Shown here one piece after another: positions 32,801-59,000 of a DNA stretch of 64,000 bases. Position 1 is the first letter of the stretch. Each line of letters begins with the position of its first letter. The stretch is from Aplysia californica (Eukaryota): the NCBI RefSeq assembly GCF_000002075.1, contig NW_004797280.1:26404-90403 (forward strand), written 5' to 3'. The position numbers were made by a program, and so were the translations under genes. Below the pieces are notes generated by a model. It was not told the origin of the DNA. It saw only the letters and a list, made by a program, of their open reading frames with translations, and made no database searches.

Positions 32801-35800
32801 AAGACTCCCTGTTTTCGGTTCCACAGTAAACGATCAAATTTCATCTCTCGGATGAATCCAGAGAAAAAGCAAGGCCTGATACAGAGACTGGTACATCTGG
32901 CTGAGGTGAGTGGGACATGGAATTGGCTTAGTTGAATTTTTTAAATACGATCTTTGATTTTATAAAGTAGTATGCTTCGATGTTGGTTGCGGTTCAGTTA
33001 AAATAAATGTATCATCAACACTTATTGTATGCCGTTACTTCCAAAGAATATAAAGTCTTTTCAGTCTGAGCTTTTTTCTGATATTAGGGGATACTTGCAA
33101 AAGTACAAGCTAAATGTAATTGAAGTAATTATAATGCCCTGTTTTTGTTGCACAGGTAACTTTAATTGACGTTTGGCGACAACCTGTATTTCTTGCTCTT
33201 TTTATTTTTAAATTTTCTTTTGGTACAGAGTTGGGGTGGCAAGGAGAATGGCTTTGGTTTAGCTGAATGCTGTCAGGATTTACCTTCTGGGGTAAGTGTT
33301 TATGCTGTAACAAAATATAGAACTAGTGTTTATAGTATGTTCTGCTACAGCAAAGGATAGTCTATGACTTATGACCATTGCTGCATTAGATCGATCGCTG
33401 GTATCTGTGATGTAGCAATTAGACGTTTTGCTGTGGCGTGCTGGAGACCGATTTCAATTCTCGAGCGGGGAGGAAATTTTTATTGTGTATCTCTGTCTCT
33501 GTGCTGGCATGTTGTACCCTTCTCAGCCCTGGTCGGCCCTGTCAGGCAGGGTTGGAAGCCTGCCTCCCAAATGATCTAAATTGTGTCGGTCAGGGCGTAG
33601 AAAACACTTACATTAAAAAAAACCCCCCAGCATTTTAATTTAGATTTACCACCTTTTGCTAAAATGAATCACATGCACGTTTCCTTAGATCCACACTCCG
33701 GGTGTGTAAGTGGTGCCAGTATCCAGTGTTGCTCTTTGCTGGATTTCTCCCTGTGCCCCCAGCACCCAAACAACCTGACCGGCTGTTCATGGAGTGTGCT
33801 TGAGTCATTGGCGTGCAACAGTAGATATACCTCTGCGTGTTTAGCGTTTGTCTTGTAGTGGGTACATACAGGTTTGCTCTGAACCTGTGTGGTACTGTTG
33901 ATTCTACAAGGCTGCTAACTCACAGGGACACTCTTTGCTAAGGCACATTTAGCTTGCACATGTAAGAAGTTTTGAAGGCAATACCATGTCCCTTTTTCTA
34001 CTCACCAACCTCCCAGGTAAAACTCTATACTTACGTTTATTTAAATAATTTTTTTTGACTTTATACGCTTGCAAGTAGTCATCACAGTTGAGACAGATAA
34101 TTATTTGCCTTGTGTTTAAAAAATTCTAAAAAGATAAAAGTTCTGGTAGATATATCATTATATGTAGTATTTGGAATACGGTCACTTTCCTGCTACTGTG
34201 ATTGTCTTGATTAAAACTGTTAGATTGTTATGCAAATTTTTCTATCAAGTCCGTTTTCAAAGTTTTGAGGCAGTGTACTTTTTGTTTGTTCCAAAGCTGA
34301 TTATAATGTGCGACGTACTTTGAACTTTTATTTGTATAGAGAAAATGAGCCAAAAATTAAGACATTAATTGGTTTACTTCAACATACGCACGTTTCCTTA
34401 GATCCACACTCCGGGTGTGTAAGTGGTGCCAGTATCCAGTGTTGCTCTTTGCTGGATTTCTCCCTGTGCACCCAGCATCCAAACAACCTGACCGGCTGTT
34501 CATGGGGTGTGCTTGAGTCATTGGCGTGCAACAGTAGATACACCACTTCGTGTTTAGCGTTTCTTTGTAGTGGGTACATACAGGTTTGCTCTGAACCTGT
34601 GTGGTACTGTTGATTCTACAAGGCTGCTAACTCCCAGGGACACTCTTTGCTAAGGCACATTTAGTTTGTACATGTGTAAAGTCTTGTAGGCATTCGCATG
34701 TCCCTTCGTTTACCCTCCCCCCCCCCCCCAAAAAAAAACCCCTCTGGTTTTATTTAATACATTTTTTGGCTGTATATACTTGAGAGTAGTCACCAGAGTT
34801 GAGAAAGATAGTTATTACCCTTGTGTTAGAAAAATTCTAAGAAGATGAAAGTCATGGTAGATATATTGAGACTAAGGTTACTCGCTGTTACCATGTTTGT
34901 CTTGATTAAAGTTGATGTTAGATTGATATGCAAATCTTTCAATCAGGTCCATTTATTTTCAAAGTTCTGATGCAGTGTACTTCTTGTTCTTTTGCAAAGC
35001 TGACTAGTGCAACATACTCTGAACTTATATTTGTATCAAGAAAATGAGCCAAAAATTCAGACATTATTGTTTAACTTCGACATACGCACGTTTCCTTAGA
35101 TCCACACTCCGGGTGTGTAAGTGGTGCCAGTATCCAGTGTTGCTCTTTGCTGGATTTCTCCTTGTGCCCCCAGCACCCAAACAACCTGACCGGCTGTTCA
35201 TGGAGTGTGCTTGAGTCATTGGCGTGCAACAGTAGATATACCTCTGCGTGTTTAGCGTTTGTCTTGTAGTGGGTACATACAGGTTTGCTCTGAACCTGTG
35301 TGGTATTGTTGATTCTACAAGGCTGCTAACTCACAGGGACACTCTTTGCTAAGGCACATTTAGCTTGTACATATGTAGAGTCTTGTAGGCAATCTCATGT
35401 CCCTTAGTTTAACAACCCCCTCCCCCGCGGTAAAACTCGTGTTTATTAAAAAAAAAATTTTTTTTTTGTTGCCGTATAATATGCTTGCAAGTAGTCATCA
35501 GAGTTGAGACAGATAATTATTAGCCTTGTTTTTTAAAAATTCTTAAAAGTTGAAAGTCATGGTAGATATATTTAAAATAAGGTTACTTGCTGCTACCATG
35601 TTTGTCTTGGTTAAAGTTGATATTAGATTGTTATGCAAATCTTTTTATCAGGTCCATTTATTAAAAAAGTTTTGGTGCGGTGTACTTCTTGTCAGTTGCA
35701 AAGCTGACAAGTGCAACATACTCTGAACTTATATGTGTATCAAGTAAATGAGCCAATAATCAAGACATTAATTAAAAAGTAAAAATTCATAATGGCGGTC

Positions 35801-38800
35801 CTGCAATGGAATGCCGGCGGAATCCGACCTTCCATTGCAGAATTGCAACATTTACAGGNNNNNNNNNNNNNNNNNNNNNNNNNNNNNNNNNNNNNNNNNN
35901 NNNNNNNNNNNNNNNNNNNNNNNNNNNNNNNNNNNNNNNNNNNNNNNNNNNNNNNNNNTCTGAACTTATATTTGTATCAAGCAATACGAGCCAATAATCA
36001 AGACATTATTGTTTAACTTCGACATACGCACGTTTCCTTAGATCCACACTCCGGGTGTGTAAGTGGTGCCAGTATCCAGTGTTGCTCTTTGCTGGATTTC
36101 TCCCTGTGCCCCCAGCACCCAAACAACCTGACCGGCTGTTCATGGAGTGTGCTTGAGTCATTGGCGTGCAACAGTAGATATACCTCTGCGTGTTAAGCGT
36201 GTGTCTTGTAGTGGGTACATACAGGTTTGCTCTGAACCTGTGTGGTACTGTTGATTCTACAAGGCTGCTAACTCCCAGGGACATACTTTGATCTATATGC
36301 AAATGTGCTTTGTTTTCGGGTAGTAATGTGCCTTTTCCTTGCTTTCTATTTTGAAATAATGCTTTTGTATACAGGTACATTAACATTTTGATATTTGTCA
36401 TTTTTTTGTCTTGTGTAGGTATTTGGCAGTTCAACATTTGGGAGAGGGGGGCGGGGTGTGTTAACATTTGTATTCTGTTACTACATTGTGAATACGCTTT
36501 GTGTATATTGCAGAGTTTTCCATCTAGTGCCACCACCCTGCACTTTGAATTCTATTCAGAGAGTAAAGAGGATAAAGGAAGCAAAAAAGTGTCACCTGTG
36601 AGTATTGTGGTTTATACAGCCTCTTTGTATTTAAATGTTTCTCTTCATTTGGAAATTAAATGAAGTCCGTTGCTAGCACTGTGAGCTAATCAAGTTAGCT
36701 TTTGTTTTGTCTGAGGTAACACTCTGTTAAACACAGCAGGTTATGACTGTTGGTAGCTGCTACACCTTCACAGTTCTCCCTTTTTTGTCTATTTTGTTAT
36801 CTCTCGGACAGAGATTCTCCCCACTCATACTAGTACTAGTGTTTGTTTCATTTTGTGTAGTTATGTTTGATTAGCAACCTTTATTTTCACACGGTTTGCT
36901 TGGGGAATGCAACTTTTAGGTCTTACCTTTGTACTGTTGTTTATTCCCCCCAAGTCTATCTTGCCTTTTCTCATCTTTAAATGACTTATATTGTATTGTC
37001 AGTGTGCTCTTTAATTAAAACGTGTTACATTTGAATTTGAAAATGCCATATGCAAGTAGAGCATAGTTGTCTGTACATCAAATCAGCAAGTTTTATACAT
37101 TTCAATGTGTTCGGTTTACTCATTTTGTTGTGGAATAATTACTCATTTTGTTGTTGAATAAGTTCACATGGCAAAGTGTTTGATTTGTCCTCAGGGTACC
37201 TCCAATGTGATCCAGAGTATTCATATGGAAAATGTGGACAAGACAGGACGTATGCCGTCACAAATTATGGAGGATATTGCAGACCTGTATGAAGTGCCTC
37301 AAGAGAAGAGGGTAAGGTCAAAACGATCAGTTAGACTCCAGGGTTGTTTTGTTTATCTCTGAGATTTTTAACATAAAGCGCTTTGAGAAGGTTGAGTATT
37401 CTCATGTGAACAAGACCATCATCATTCATCATTGCGTAAGCTTTGCAATCATTGTGTATGTAAGATTGGCAAAGTCGTCTTTGCCAGTTACCAGGGGGCT
37501 AAGCTTCAAGGTCCGTCTCCATTTAAAAAATAGTCTGCACCTCTACACTGTTTTAAAGAATAACTTAGCATAGCAGTTTCTTGAATGATTTATTTAGTTA
37601 TTTTTTCAGATGTCCTCTTTCTTTCCCTCTCTCTTATGTCTATCCACTTGACTATCCCTATTTTATGTGCTTCCTGTTGGATTGTATCACCAACAGGCAA
37701 TTTGCATGCTATCTAGGGTTTATTTAAGGTTGTGGTTGTTTTTATAGTAGCGTTATTGGTGAAGACATTTCTCTATTCTTATTCTTTCTTGTTCTGTGGG
37801 TAGTTGGAGGGCGCAACTGGTAGGTCCTCCTTTTTAACTTTCCCTCTGTTGTTTCTGTCTGTGTGTCGTACTTTTTTCCCCAGCACTAAATGACTATTAT
37901 TGTGTCCATGTGCTTCTCTTTAACAAACAAACATTTTTTGAGGTGGGTTTTTTTTGGTTTAAAGATGAATGACCTCCAGTACTTTGATCCTAATCAATTG
38001 ATGCATGTTTCTCCTTACTTCATGCAGGTACTACTTTTCACACACATCAGACTGGCGTGCTTGTTCTCAGACTATGAGGCCAGGGTTCATTGTGTTCAGG
38101 CAAGATTACAGGCCATATCAATTTTGGGTAAGTAATAATGTATGAATGTTTGGTTTTTTTTTTCTTTTTGTTGTTTTGTTTTGTAGAGAAATACCACCCT
38201 TTTAAGAAGGTTAATAACACCCCCCCCCCCAGCAAAACGTCTGTAGTGAAACACTATGATGGTTTTGTCAGTGGTTTTTATTTAAAATGGGCACTCGGAT
38301 TGATTAAAATAAACTATTGTATTGCTGTGTAATGGCTTACTGAGAATTTGATTTCGAATAAAATTTTATGAATGGTGACGACCAAACCTGGGGAATACAC
38401 TCACACAGTTGCTGCACATGCTGTCACTGTTACGTAGCCCCTGAGAACATGAATAAACACACACAACAACCCCCCCCCCCCCCCCACCACCACCACCACC
38501 ACCCACAGTAAAACGGTTGAAGGCCATTTGGCAGTCACCTTGTGTTCATTCTTTGTGCCTTAGTTTTGTAGAGAAATTATGAAGTATTCTGTGACCTCTG
38601 CATAATGTTCTTCTCTCCCTCAGTGTATTCAAGTGCAATCCAAGAGAACATGAATGTGATCCTGTACCCCGGCTTGATAGAAGAGTTGGTGGACATTGTG
38701 GAGATCAAAGATACTGCCCTTGTGGTGAGTTGACTCATGGCACTAAGACGATGTCGTTTATGACGTAGCAGCAGAAAATTCTTTCGTGTGGTTGACGGAA

Positions 38801-53068: not shown

Positions 53069-56000
53069 CGCACGCGCACATTCAATACATTCTTATAATT
53101 GAGGTTGTTGAGTTCTCGGTTGTTTCAGCTTTTTGGCTGTTCAGTGCATCTGTTTTACACAGTGCCCAATAAAATAGTGAATTTTGAATACTGTTCTGCC
53201 AACTTGCCTAACAATAGTTCCACCATTGCATTTCTTTTGTAATGCGTGCTACAAGGCACTCAGGTGACGGGAACAGACCAAAGGCTGTACTAATTTCAAC
53301 TGACTGCACACTATATTGCACTCTTACCTTGCAGCCTTCTTGCTGAATATTGCAGTAAGGGGGGTGATTTTTGTTGTTGTTTTTTTTTTTTTTTTTATTT
53401 TTCTGAATGATGTACCCGATTAATGTTTCGGGAGTGGTTTAGAGTAGGGCAAATAGTTAGATTTTGAGAATGGGTTTAGCCTACATAATCTCTAGTTTAT
53501 TTGCGCTATTGATTGATTGGCTACTTTCTGAGACAGTAAAAGAAATATTCTTTCGCGTCTGTGATACTAAATAGTCACTACGCCAATATCCATGCAGTTA
53601 CTGTTTAAAGGACAAAACAGATGTTGGAAATATTTTTCCTGTTTATATTGGCTTTATGCTGTCCATGATGTTTTCAAGCACGTGTCGTAAAAGGCTATGT
53701 TCTTTGACGATCCAAATTTCTGACTGTCAGCATGAATCTTTTAACTTTTAGAAAAGTGGTCACATACCTTTAAATTGCAGTAATTATAAACATTTGTTGG
53801 GGGGTGTTGGTTGGAGATGTTGGGTTCATTTTCCAAAATTCAATACATTCTTGTAATGGAGGTTGTTGAGTGCTCAGTGGTTTAGACACAGACTTTTTGT
53901 TTTGTAGGAAAGAAGGAATTTGTATCGTAGCTTGGAAGATGTGATGGGTGTGTTCAGTTCCTTCAATTTTGCTGTTTTATGCCTGCAGGCTTTGTCAACT
54001 GCAAAGTAACTACTGTTTTGCGCCCAGATCATCCTACATTTTTTTGCCCATCGACTTGCACAACTTAGATGCAACCCCCCCCCCAAAGTTTTGTTCTGCC
54101 AGTTCACCTTTTCAGCAGAGTCTCTATGATGCTTACAAGCATATGTCTGAAGATAATTATGAAGACACATTTACTGAGGGACTCGTCATCTTTTTTTTTA
54201 TCTTACTATATTTTGAAAATAATGTAACAGACACATGAAGGAGGTCATGGTTACATTGTCTTTTTAAGGAGGCTCGTGGTATTCTATTTTTTTTTTTTTG
54301 TGTTCTTGAAAACCAATGTAAGTTGCCAATTATTGGAAGAATGCAGCAGCAGGCCATACATGTTGCTGCTCCTGTTGTTTATTGGGTCACGCTGTTTTTC
54401 AGAGACAGGTCTGTAAACCCTGATTTTTGTGTTTTTGTTGCCTGCAGGAGATACAGCCAGCAATCTGGGCAATGCCATGGATGAACTGATGCGGCACCAA
54501 CCGTCCTTGCGCACTGGTGCCACCAAGGCCATCGTCAAGGTGAGTAGTTGTGTGTTGTACTAGACTTTTGGATGTAGTAAATACAGTTGAACCTGTTCAA
54601 AATGACCGTCCATTGTTGAGGAGAAAAGTGGTCATCTTAGACAGGTAGTCCTCTTGGACAGTGTCACTATCAAATACTCTTAGAAAAAAATGCAAGGAGA
54701 GAAGGGGGGGGGGGGGTGGTTCTTTGTACAGGTAATTGTCTTTGGCAGGTGTTCATTATCGCAGGTTCGACTGTAATTGTATCTTTTGTGGGTTCTTAAG
54801 CTCTCCCACATAAGTTGTGGCTTGCTTCCGTATCTGTGTGTAGTATCCTATTTACTATTTTTTTAAAGTCTTTATGCTACCTGCAGGATTTGATTAATTA
54901 AAAGCTTTGTAAGTGTGCTTGCAAAGTTCACCTTTACACAAAAAGTCTCTATGATGCTTACAAGCATATGTCTGAAGATGCGTCTTGTGAAGACACTTTT
55001 ACTGAGGGACTCATTAGATGTCATAATTACTGGCATCAAACAACTTTGTTATAAATGATTTTTAATTCGATTTGATATTTGTTGTTTCATGTGTGCTTGG
55101 ATAGTGCTTTGCTTTTTTAAAATTCTATTTTCTCTGTTCTGGTGCCTACTTACTAACTAGGATACTTGGAATTTTAATGTTTGTTTTCCCATGTATTCTT
55201 GGAGGTGACAAACTGCACTCGCGCAATCTTCAATTTTATCATGAGCAAAATTTGTTATATTATGCATAGCTGATAAGCTTTTCCTGCATTTGATTTTGAT
55301 CTTCTGTACAAAATGTTTCGAGTATTGGATGCTTGGCTTAAGTGTTATTGTTGTTTCTCTAGCTTTTGTCACATTTGTTTTGTCGTGAGTGGTTGGCTGG
55401 TGCTTTAGTGTGGTTTGCTCCTTCTTTCCTGTCAAGCATCTATATTCCTTATCTCTCCTCATTTTCTTTGAACAGTATGTTACTCTTTAGTAATCATTCT
55501 AATCTTTGGCACTTTTATGATCTATTTGTGTTGCAAGTGCCTTAAAAACTCGTACTAAATCTAAAGTGTATTTATTTTCAGCTTCTGGAGGAAATTTGCT
55601 CCATGGGTCAAAACTCGCAGTTCATTTGCCAGAAACAGCAGCCCAAATCTGATGCTGCGTCTGCCCAAGTGACCAATGTGCGGTCGCCTCAGTCGAACGA
55701 GGCTAGCTCCTCGGATGAAGAAGAAGACGAAGAGGTGGAGATGCCTCACATGCCCCGGTCCATCACGGCCTCGGCTCACATCACCTCACAGGGCAACAAG
55801 CCGGCGGCCCCTGCTGCACAGAGTGAACCATTGTAAGGAGCCGTGTATAATAATAATAATAGATAGCATTTGTATAGCGCAAATCCCCGCTCAACAACAG
55901 GCTCTATGCGCTTTACACTATATTATTACCCCAGCAGACCATAGAACACACCGAAACATTCTCAGCTTCCCGGGAAGCATACAGTGCAAGCAGCTGATTA

Positions 56001-59000
56001 AGCGCTCAAACACTCACATACTGACAAGATCTTTCGCTGTCTATAGCCGGGTACCCATTCCCACCTGGGTGAAGTGAGGAAAATTCGTGTAAAGTGCCTT
56101 TCCCAAGGACACAACGTCGGGTCCCTGACGGGATTCGAACCCTCGACCTTACGGTTGCGAGTCCGAGAGCCTAACCACTAGGCCACCGACGCCACTTGAC
56201 GATTTTATTAATTCAGTCATTACTGATTGCAGGAGTAGCTCAGACGTTGGCTGGTGCCCTGGTGTGGTTTTCTCTCCTTTTTTTTCCTGTCAAATATCTA
56301 TTGTCCTTATCTCTCCATCTCCTTTTTTAAATGTTTGTTACTGTCTTGTAATACCTCCTATCTTCATCTCTTATATGACTTAATTGTGTTGTAAGTGCCG
56401 CAGAACTCTTACTATAATGAAAAAAAAAAAAAAAAATTAGGTGTTTTGAACACTTTGCTTAAGTCCAAACTATGGAAGGGGTTGGTGTCAATGAGTTACT
56501 GGCTTTGAGCGTTGAATACAATCTGTTTGCTTCACAGCCCCATTGATAATGAATAGCTGATGGAGTCGGGGGGGCGAGTGGGTCGGCTCTCAGACTCGCC
56601 GTAAGGTTGTGGGTTTGAATCCTGTGATGAGGCCTGGGGTTGTGTCCTTGGGAAAGACATATTACACAAATTATCCTTACTTCACAAAGGTGGAAATGTG
56701 TACCCAGCTATAGGCAGCGAAAGATCTTGTCAGTTTATTATTGTTTGTATGCTTAGCACTCTGCTTCCGGGAAAGCCGAGAATGTTTCTTAGGATTTTTA
56801 GATCTGCTGGACAATTGTAAAATGCATAGAGCATGCTGTAGGGGGGGGGGGGGGGGTATCCTGATACAACTACGATCATATTGTTTGGTTCGTATTTTGT
56901 TTCCCGAAAAAGAACTCACGAATGAGACAGGTTTGATGATGAACTCACTCTAGACAAGCATATGTCTGACATGAAATTGAGTGATGCTTATGTTCTGAAA
57001 GTAAATTTGAAAAAAGGGCATATTCTCTTCGATGTCATTGGATTCAAGTATCATTCTTCCGTAAATTGCTTTTTGGAACTCCTTTATTCATGCTATTCAC
57101 TAAGCGTTCATGCTAATGTAAAGTATTATAGACTTGAAGGTACTAGTGGTTTTGAAAAAAAATTGCTTCTATATCTTTTGAATTTATTTCTTTTTTTCAG
57201 AAACCAAGAAAGACAAGCAATACCTCTGATGGATTATGTATTGAATGTGGTGAGTTTTTTAAATCTGATGTTCTTATATTGATATGTGACTATCTCAGTG
57301 GGACATACAGTAGTTGTTTTTGTTGTTGTTGTTGTTGATCCAGCAACAGTTGGGCTCTCGCCCTTCTATCCACTGCCATGTAGTGATAAGTACAGGTTTG
57401 CTGATATTCTAAAGTGTTTTGTCAGTGTTAGGTCTCAGAGGGAGAAGGGTAGCTCTGATAATCATCCAGAGCTGTGCAGGGGAACAGGTGATGATCCACA
57501 GTCTTGAACGTGTAGTGAGACGAAGGACACATTGGGGGAAGTTCTGGTTTTACTGTTTTATGTACTGATTGTTGAGTAAAAACACGCGCATTAACATTTT
57601 TTTTTCAATTCTGTTTGAGTGGAAGTTATGCTGTATCTGTTTGCAGATGAAGTCTATGAAAGGGAAATTTTTTTAGAATGCATTGTTTTGAACCTTGGGC
57701 AGGTTGTCAGTTCTGTCTCAAGATAAGCCAATGCAAGATTAAATTGACTCTCGAGCCCTTACAAAGTCAGAATGCTTGTTTCTTGGCTTATTGGGCAAGG
57801 AGACTACAGGCAGTTTCAAAGTAAATCGTATGTGGCTTTACTGAGTTTTTTTTCTCTTTTTTCTTGTCCATTTCATTATTTACATTACAAAACCTTTGTC
57901 TTAGACATGTGAGTCTGATTTCAGCCGTAGGGTGTGCACTTAATTGGAATAAGTTGTCTTGAGGTTTGCATAAATGATCTTGAATATATGAGCGCATGTT
58001 TATGTATGTGTGTGTATGAGTAGGTGAGTGTTTCAGTGTAATAGTATGAGATGCTGGAGCAGAATAGAGAAGAAGAAAGTTGGAAACCCCTTACAAAGCA
58101 GTTCTTTGATGTTGTTGTTACAATATGACCAAGGCGACCTTCTTGGTGTGGAATGAATAAATATCGTAGATTCTGCCCAAGACAACCACCCATTGGGGGG
58201 GTGGGGGGTGGTGGAGTGATCCATCTTGGGCAGGATCTCGCTTTCGATAGTGTCCTATAATGATTAAGAACATTTTTTTAAAGTGGGAAGAGGTTTTTTG
58301 TACAGGTGATTCGCTACCTCACAATTACAAAGTTCTATCTGCTTGGTACCTAGTTTTGAGAAATTTGATGTTAAAAATTTTTGAGTTTCACAACGTCATG
58401 CTTTTTCGAATGCGATTCTTTGAATATCTCGATAACAACTCTGATTAATCTTCTGACTTTGACAGAGCATATAGATCATAATTTGGTTTCTGACTTCATG
58501 GTCTTAGTAACTTAATATGGCTAAAAATATCAGATAGAACTTTGTAAGTCTAAGTCCGTGGATTCGCTCGGGACAGGTGGTTGTAAGAGCACAAACGACT
58601 GTATTTTCTTGGGTTTTTCCTCTCAGATGAAATTTGTGGAAGCCATTCTGAGTAACAACTCCACCGACGACCACTGCCGGGAGTTTGTGGCCCACAACGG
58701 GCTGAAGCCCCTGATGAGCATTCTTGGTCTGCCCAACTTGCCCATAGACTTCCCCACCACGCCGGCCTGCCAGGCTGTCTCCAGTGTGTGCAAGTCCATT
58801 CTGGTAGGTTGACTGTTTGTGATATTAGTTTATCATGGTGTTTTTTTGTTTGTGTTTGAGTGCTTAATCGGATGCTTACTTACTCTGTTTGCTTCCAGGG
58901 AAGCTGAGATGGTTTCTGGGTATTCTAGGGTCTGCTGGGGTAGTAGTGTAGTGTAAAGTGGGTAGAGCTTGGTGTTGAGTGGGGATATGCCTTTTACAAA

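What the first reader, a model, noticed from the sequence alone, without database searches (positions are those of the whole stretch)
33672..36286. Tandem quadruplication of the orphan H/ACA RNA SNORA53 in a single intron
Seen: four roughly 260-nt near-identical cores, the first three about 700 bp apart, with much more diverged spacers and intact H and ACA boxes; a 100-N gap (35859-35958) may hide more. Known (recalled): SNORA53 is a long orphan H/ACA RNA hosted elsewhere in vertebrates. Inference: a second, independent snoRNA amplification in the same host, which suggests a locus-level tendency to amplify intronic RNAs. The motifs retained with vertebrates (TTCCTTAGATCC, GTGCTTGAGTCATTGGC) point to its functional elements.
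Basis: partly seen in the sequence, partly recalled or inferred. Interest (0 to 1): 0.72.

Follow-up and report, generated by a model that had tools for sequence, protein, structure and literature searches.

The report
Tandem SNORA53 copies in gastropod HUWE1
Four near-identical copies (likely five or six) of a known small RNA gene, SNORA53, sit head-to-tail in one intron of the HUWE1 gene of what is likely a gastropod, and they are predicted to guide the same two ribosomal-RNA modifications as the human gene, so this is an unusual copy arrangement of an already explained RNA.

Summary
Four Rfam SNORA53 genes (45-62 bits, cut-off 38) form a ~700-bp tandem array in coding intron 6 of HUWE1, and the genome holds no other match. 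Cores are 95-99% identical, spacers 72-80%. A spacer end repeated across the N gap, an unassembled spacer variant and contig depth suggest 5-6 copies.

The 'orphan' label is wrong. Jady et al. 2022 showed that SNORA53 guides 28S psi3747/psi3749, and their supplement names a sea hare copy. They are invariant in all four copies and pair with this genome's 28S in both published registers (14 and 16 nt from box H).

Host switching is common: 25 metagenome matches are single copies in RPLP0, an SLC25 carrier, UBR4 or a Sec7 gene. HUWE1 also holds 24 C/D guides, with two more in-intron arrays, but RPS4 in this genome also has an in-intron pair. Intronic H/ACA clusters are known in Drosophila. Expression and processing are untested.

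The parts
33229..33291 (+). HUWE1 coding exon 6 (5' flank of the host intron)
   Evidence: spliced to 36514
33292..36513 (+). HUWE1 coding intron 6, GT-AG, 3222 nt as assembled; holds the array
33490..33620 (.). End of a high-copy dispersed element just upstream of copy 1 (limits approximate)
   Evidence: summed contig depth >10,000 and many loose ends in X1
33674..33933 (+). SNORA53 copy 1; upstream antisense 33683-33689, downstream antisense 33802-33808, box H 33818-33823, ACA 33928-33930
33934..34386 (+). spacer 1 (453 nt)
34387..34645 (+). SNORA53 copy 2; box H 34531-34536, ACA 34640-34642; guide loop intact, 3' hairpin base destabilised (possibly decaying)
34646..35084 (+). spacer 2 (439 nt)
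35085..35344 (+). SNORA53 copy 3; box H 35229-35234, ACA 35339-35341
35345..35770 (+). spacer 3, ending where the next core would almost begin
35771..35858 (+). 88-nt piece of a high-copy dispersed element (reads like the start of a LINE endonuclease frame; label recalled, no Pfam hit), running into the gap
   Evidence: 40 of 40 scored candidates match at 98-100%, 321 candidates
35859..35958 (.). 100-N gap; likely hides one or more further units
35959..36026 (+). end of a further spacer, repeating the end of spacer 3
   Evidence: families D5, D6
36027..36286 (+). SNORA53 copy 4; box H 36171-36176, ACA 36281-36283; ends 227 nt before the 3' splice site
36514..36597 (+). HUWE1 coding exon 7 (3' flank)

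Best explanation
This is a head-to-tail array of at least four SNORA53 box H/ACA snoRNA genes in intron 6 of HUWE1, likely made by local duplication of a ~700-bp unit and predicted to guide pseudouridylation of two neighbouring uridines of 28S rRNA, as human SNORA53 does. Shown: family membership, position in a spliced intron, intact boxes, an invariant guide loop, and a matching site in this genome's 28S (U2595 and U2597 of the local 28S, at 14 and 16 nt from box H). Inferred: HUWE1 transcription and splicing release the intron; dyskerin-type proteins protect each core; the spacers are cut and trimmed to give ~260-nt RNAs, as intronic clusters in Drosophila imply is possible; the 5' loop switches between two pairings to make the equivalents of human psi3747 and psi3749. 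Also inferred: the gene moved into HUWE1 from another host, unequal crossing-over added copies, selection (perhaps with gene conversion) holds the cores alike while spacers drift, and copy 2 may be starting to decay. The extra copies most likely add dose or redundancy, not a new function.
For: Rfam gives 4 hits over cut-off. Both motifs and box H are identical in 4 of 4 copies, and none of the 17 variable columns falls in them. A pocket scan of own 28S, 5.8S and a partial 18S ranks U2597 (16 nt) and U2595 (14 nt) first and second; these are the two sites and spacings shown by knock-out, rescue and mutation in human cells (PMC8763049). In an alignment of the 4 copies and 15 metagenome orthologues, 285 of 285 stem cells pair and 8 of 15 pairs show two-sided changes, while the guide nucleotides never vary. 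Box H lies 14 nt from the guide in 17 of 19. Fold z = -3.2, with 0 of 200 shuffles as stable. Host: HUWE1. Precedent for intronic H/ACA clusters: PMC3089462 passages and PMC11028025 passages.
Against: No mature RNA was seen; no run suited to snoRNAs was laid. The pocket score alone is not far from chance: 1 of 30 shuffled rRNAs reached the top score of 30, and 4 of 30 reached 27. The covariation count is not tree-corrected, and 22 of the 25 metagenome loci share one host and are related. Animals mostly carry one snoRNA per intron, and two in one intron can give a sno-lncRNA instead. The spacers show no common strong hairpin for an RNase III-type cut: -91.5, -82.0 and -96.0 kcal/mol against shuffled means of -86.4, -87.5 and -86.0. 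The releasing nuclease is therefore unidentified. Copy 2 has a weaker 3' hairpin (-33.0 against -38.6 to -41.0 kcal/mol).
Confidence: 0.8

Rival explanations
1. The intron is trimmed only from its ends, so the array accumulates as one long snoRNA-ended RNA (sno-lncRNA, about 2.6 kb or more) carrying several guide loops, or only the outer copies mature.
For: Exonucleolytic maturation of two snoRNAs in one intron gives sno-lncRNAs in mammals (PMC11028025 passages). No shared spacer hairpin.
Against: Inner copy 3 is as well kept as the outer ones (98.8% to copy 1), although gene conversion could also do that. Drosophila H/ACA loci are described as generally clustered in introns (PMC3089462 passage), and this host has C/D arrays of up to 8 copies; both suggest individual release is possible in invertebrates.
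Confidence: 0.15
2. Only one or two copies matter. The rest are a recent neutral expansion kept alike by gene conversion and on their way to decay.
For: 9 of 17 variable columns are private to copy 2, and several break its 3' basal stem. A dispersed element has landed just before the gap. All 25 metagenome orthologues are single.
Against: Identity drops within about 50 nt of the core's 3' end and all four guide loops are intact. This fits selection on each core, but conversion tracts cannot be excluded. It does not conflict with the function given above.
Confidence: 0.3
3. The conserved motifs also, or instead, pair with intron-containing pre-tRNA-Leu(CAA), whose D and anticodon arms carry the complements of both motifs.
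For: The complement pattern matched 8 places, 7 of them the same tRNA sequence, against 3 for the reversed control (the Leu-CAA label is recalled, and ARAGORN mis-called the anticodon because of the intron).
Against: The two complements lie in the reverse order for a pseudouridylation pocket. The 28S site explains every invariant base, and was tested experimentally in human cells. The part that would extend the tRNA pairing is the proximal stem and changes with compensation in orthologues. The 7 hits are one tRNA family, so one coincidence.
Confidence: 0.04
4. The array is an assembly artefact or a dispersed transposon.
For: A 100-N gap and a repeat fragment interrupt it.
Against: The spacers differ by 14-21%, and pieces of all three are present in run X1 and in run X5 of another sample. 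Core depth is 4.6-6.2 times the flanks. Only 4 genomic matches exist.
Confidence: 0.02

Closest known systems
SNORA53 (ACA53; Rfam RF00563), dual guide for human 28S psi3747/psi3749 (Jady et al. 2022, PMC8763049)
   Same: Same family over cut-off, same guide elements, CUU bulge, 14/16-nt spacing to box H, branched 5' hairpin, and a 3' hairpin without an rRNA target above chance. The paper's Suppl. Fig. S1 legend lists a sea hare SNORA53 (the figure itself is a picture and was not seen).
   Different: The human gene lies in intron 5 of SLC25A3, and deleting that one gene abolishes the RNA. Here there are four or more copies in one intron of HUWE1. Box H is ACAGUA and the overlapping H-like motif of the human RNA is absent.
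Drosophila intronic H/ACA snoRNA clusters
   Same: Several H/ACA genes in one intron of a protein-coding host (stated in PMC3089462 passages; the primary paper was not held).
   Different: Here the RNA is long (260 nt), the unit is ~700 bp, the lineage is a mollusc, and C/D guides also form in-intron arrays, whereas the passage says Drosophila C/D loci are one per intron.
sno-lncRNAs (for example SLERT; PMC11028025 passages)
   Same: Two or more snoRNAs in one intron.
   Different: No long snoRNA-ended RNA has been shown here, and the copies are of one family.

Membership tests
SNORA53 (RF00563) | Covariance-model score at or above the gathering score (38 bits) | tested here: met
   61.5, 45.3, 61.5, 57.6 bits
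SNORA53 (RF00563) | Bipartite antisense elements complementary to the 28S site, allowing both registers | tested here: met
   invariant in 4 of 4; top two hits in own rRNA; site present in 4 of 4 fetched 28S copies
Box H/ACA snoRNA | Hairpin-hinge-hairpin-tail with box H (ANANNA) and ACA 3 nt from the 3' end | tested here: met
   copy 2 has a weakened 3' hairpin
Box H/ACA snoRNA | Target U 13-16 nt from box H | tested here: met
   14 and 16 nt
Box H/ACA snoRNA | Intronic, on the host's sense strand | tested here: met
Box H/ACA snoRNA | Accumulates as a discrete RNA bound to dyskerin, NOP10, NHP2 and GAR1 | not testable with these tools
   only polyA raw reads were on offer
Box H/ACA snoRNA | Target uridines are pseudouridylated in this organism | not testable with these tools
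   shown for human only
Orphan snoRNA | No known target | tested here: not met
   target published and conserved here
Dispersed transposon | Many unlinked genomic copies | tested here: not met
   4 matches, all in this intron
sno-lncRNA | Stable long intron remnant with snoRNA ends | not testable with these tools
   no total-RNA or long-read RNA run was laid

The most novel reading that the evidence does not exclude
The 5' part of gastropod HUWE1 is a large snoRNA host: at least 28 rRNA guides in about 30 kb, with three introns carrying tandem arrays of 4-8 copies of both classes. They are released by an undescribed cutting step or kept as multi-guide sno-lncRNAs, and one C/D family has been retargeted from 18S to 28S after duplication.
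Probability: 0.2. Interest if true: 0.6.

Novelty: new member of a known kind. Interest (0 to 1): 0.3.

Why it matters
The RNA and its job are known, so the value is modest. The locus extends the conserved dual-guide loop to more invertebrate copies, and shows SNORA53 in five different host genes. It also offers a natural test of how an animal matures several snoRNAs from one intron, because the copies carry distinguishing variants.

Tried and rejected
A pre-tRNA-Leu target was rejected. The 3' hairpin has no rRNA target: best score 27 against shuffled bests of 25-34. No second SNORA53 locus was found. The own mitochondrial-carrier gene was found and no SNORA53 remnant appeared in about 27 kb of it, but its last exons were not reached, so the intron equivalent to the human host intron was not inspected. 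Expression: no RNA holder was listed, and three polyA runs give almost no reads on the cores; this is uninformative. No listed contig spans the gap. No further snoRNAs were found downstream in the host (Rfam on 70 of 100 kb fetched; motif scan on all 100 kb). The Atlas could not name the L055 carrier, so 'SLC25A3' for L055 rests on Pfam Mito_carr plus recall; PDB hits were other carriers. Pfam gave no hit for the inserted element. Earlier-finding look-ups were empty. Literature searches for the array gave nothing relevant (listings only, open-access library only). The Drosophila primary paper was not held.
Full report
Observation. The window holds four near-identical cores at 33674-33933, 34387-34645, 35085-35344 and 36027-36286. 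All pass Rfam's cut-off for SNORA53: 61.5, 45.3, 61.5 and 57.6 bits against 38. Each has box H (ACAGUA) and ACA three bases from the end. Copy 1 folds as two hairpins with a branched 5' arm, z = -3.2, with 0 of 200 shuffles as stable. Cores are 95.4-98.8% identical, spacers 71.7-79.6% including gaps. The contrast is significant (p 1e-7 to 1e-17), but the spacers are plainly homologous, so the repeated unit is about 700 bp. A DNA search and an Rfam search of the whole genome each return four matches, all here.

Host. Exons 1-15 read by eye give one open frame with GT-AG introns. Single exons hit DUF913 (2 of 4 tested) and human HUWE1 in the PDB. The best protein relatives are gastropod HUWE1s (Bulinus 67%, Lottia 47%), so the organism is likely a gastropod. 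Lottia residues 166-187 and 188-221 map to the exons on either side of 33292-36513. That intron is spliced out in 1 read of X22, 5 of X23 and none of X21, and in a contig of X17. The array therefore lies in one intron, on the sense strand.

Copy number. The end of the spacer occurs both before the gap (35722) and after it (35959). Before the gap it is followed by 88 nt of a high-copy element (40 of 40 scored candidates at 98-100%) instead of a core. Runs X1 and X5 (two samples) hold a spacer variant that differs from spacer 1 at the 18 listed positions I compared and agrees with spacers 2 and 3 at only 6 and 4 of them (25 rows of that table were not shown). Core contig depth over the median flank depth is 6.2, 4.6 and 6.0 in X1, X2 and X5. 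The tool warns that depth is not copy number, the variant could be a divergent allele, and X1 and X2 may be the assembly's own sample. Five or six copies is therefore likely, not shown.

Function. Jady et al. 2022 (PMC8763049; I read the abstract, introduction, results and discussion, the supplement list and the legend of Suppl. Fig. S1) showed by knock-out, rescue and mutation that the 5' loop of SNORA53 guides both psi3747 and psi3749 of 28S through two alternative pairings. [quoted passage not shown] The figure is a picture, so I could not see whether that sequence is one of these copies. The target is present in 4 of 4 fetched 28S copies. A pocket scan over own 28S, 5.8S and a partial 18S ranks U2597 (16 nt from box H) and U2595 (14 nt) first and second, matching the published spacings. 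The score alone is not decisive: 1 of 30 shuffled rRNAs reached 30, and 4 reached 27. The agreement with the tested human sites is the real support. The 3' hairpin has no rRNA target above chance, as the paper reports for human.

Orthologues. An exact two-motif scan of metagenome contigs gave 25 loci, with 20 distinct 5' domains. All 17 of the 25 that I gave to Rfam hit SNORA53 once. Each of the 25 has one copy, and none lies in HUWE1. Hosts: RPLP0 in 22 of 25, with both flanking exons on the contig in 13; a mitochondrial carrier in L055 (SLC25A3 by recall); UBR4 in L049; a Sec7 gene in L043. With human SLC25A3 and HUWE1 here, that makes five kinds of host, so host switching is common. In an alignment of the 4 copies and 15 of the 25 loci, the proximal and distal stems pair in 285 of 285 cells, 8 of 15 pairs change on both sides, and the guide bases never vary. 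Relatedness is not corrected for. Box H sits 14 nt from the guide in 17 of 19; two have a non-canonical box. Short contigs and collapsed repeats could hide extra copies in some loci.

Locus-level tendency. The same host carries 23 motif-defined C/D guides plus one more weak Rfam hit at 48333. Seventeen are SNORD27-like (all below Rfam's cut-off), with an 11-bp perfect match to the 5' end of own 18S; 8 of them lie in the intron at 43229-47421. Seven form a related family with an 11-bp match (one G-U) to 28S; 6 of them lie in the intron at 49753-54448. HUWE1 thus has three multi-copy introns. As a control I looked at three other families. The SNORA73 pair in eEF1A and the SNORD14 pair in Hsp70 sit in separate introns. 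Four weak SNORA16-like hits in RPS4 include a pair with duplicated flanks inside the last intron. In-intron duplication is therefore a habit of this genome, with HUWE1 the strongest case of the four hosts seen. Three controls are too few to call it an outlier.

Mechanism. Shown: family, boxes, intron position, splicing, target match. Inferred: release from the spliced intron, cutting and trimming of the spacers, assembly with dyskerin, and dual pseudouridylation. The open step is release. Animals mostly have one snoRNA per intron, and two can give a sno-lncRNA (PMC11028025, passages). In yeast, Rnt1 cuts between polycistronic snoRNAs (PMC10557570, passages). Drosophila H/ACA loci are generally clustered in introns (PMC3089462, passages). 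The spacers here show no common strong hairpin. I favour individual ~260-nt RNAs. Copy 2 holds 9 of the 17 variable columns and has lost the base of its 3' hairpin, so it may be decaying. Expression could not be tested.

Novelty. The RNA, its target and a gastropod homologue are in print, and intronic H/ACA clusters are a known arrangement. The array and the HUWE1 host did not turn up in my searches (listings of an open-access library). Genome annotations or the unseen S1 figure may already show them. Verdict: a real but mostly ordinary finding, a new member of a known kind; interest 0.3.

Noticed in passing
window 38815-63745: 17 SNORD27-like C/D guides (18S A27, 11-bp perfect match) in HUWE1 introns, 8 of them in tandem at 43654-46966 in one intron; all below Rfam's cut-off.
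   Followed up: partly
window 49123-53730: 7 related C/D guides whose D' guide differs at a few positions and matches own 28S (L013:4897) instead of 18S; 6 lie in one intron. Possibly a paralogue retargeted after duplication.
   Followed up: partly
L067:2020-6166 (G000:C574): RPS4 host with four weak SNORA16-like hits, two in the last intron with duplicated flanks, plus two partial tandem repeats at 4758-4990.
   Followed up: partly
L039-L063: SNORA53 in four other hosts in metagenome contigs: RPLP0 (22 of 25), a mitochondrial carrier (L055), UBR4 (L049, which also has SNORD31 in another intron) and a Sec7 gene (L043).
   Followed up: yes
L005, L007-L012: Intron-containing tRNA genes (Leu-CAA by recall) carry the complements of both SNORA53 motifs in reverse order; four lie within 4 kb on C292.
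   Followed up: partly
window 35771-35858; L035-L038: High-copy element whose frame begins like a LINE endonuclease (recalled motifs; no Pfam hit) and that abuts the gap; runs X1 and X5 also hold the spacer without it.
   Followed up: partly
window 57678-57811: Weak H/ACA-type Rfam hits (SNORA50, SNORA42; E 0.9-3) in a HUWE1 intron; may be another snoRNA or chance.
   Followed up: no
window 4718-4790, 40252-40320: tRNA-like Rfam hits; the one at 40252 heads a repeat also seen in L065, likely a tRNA-derived SINE.
   Followed up: no
L031, L033, L034 (G000:C2100): rDNA units appear partly duplicated or gapped in this contig, for example two 18S 5' ends 3.3 kb apart in L033.
   Followed up: no
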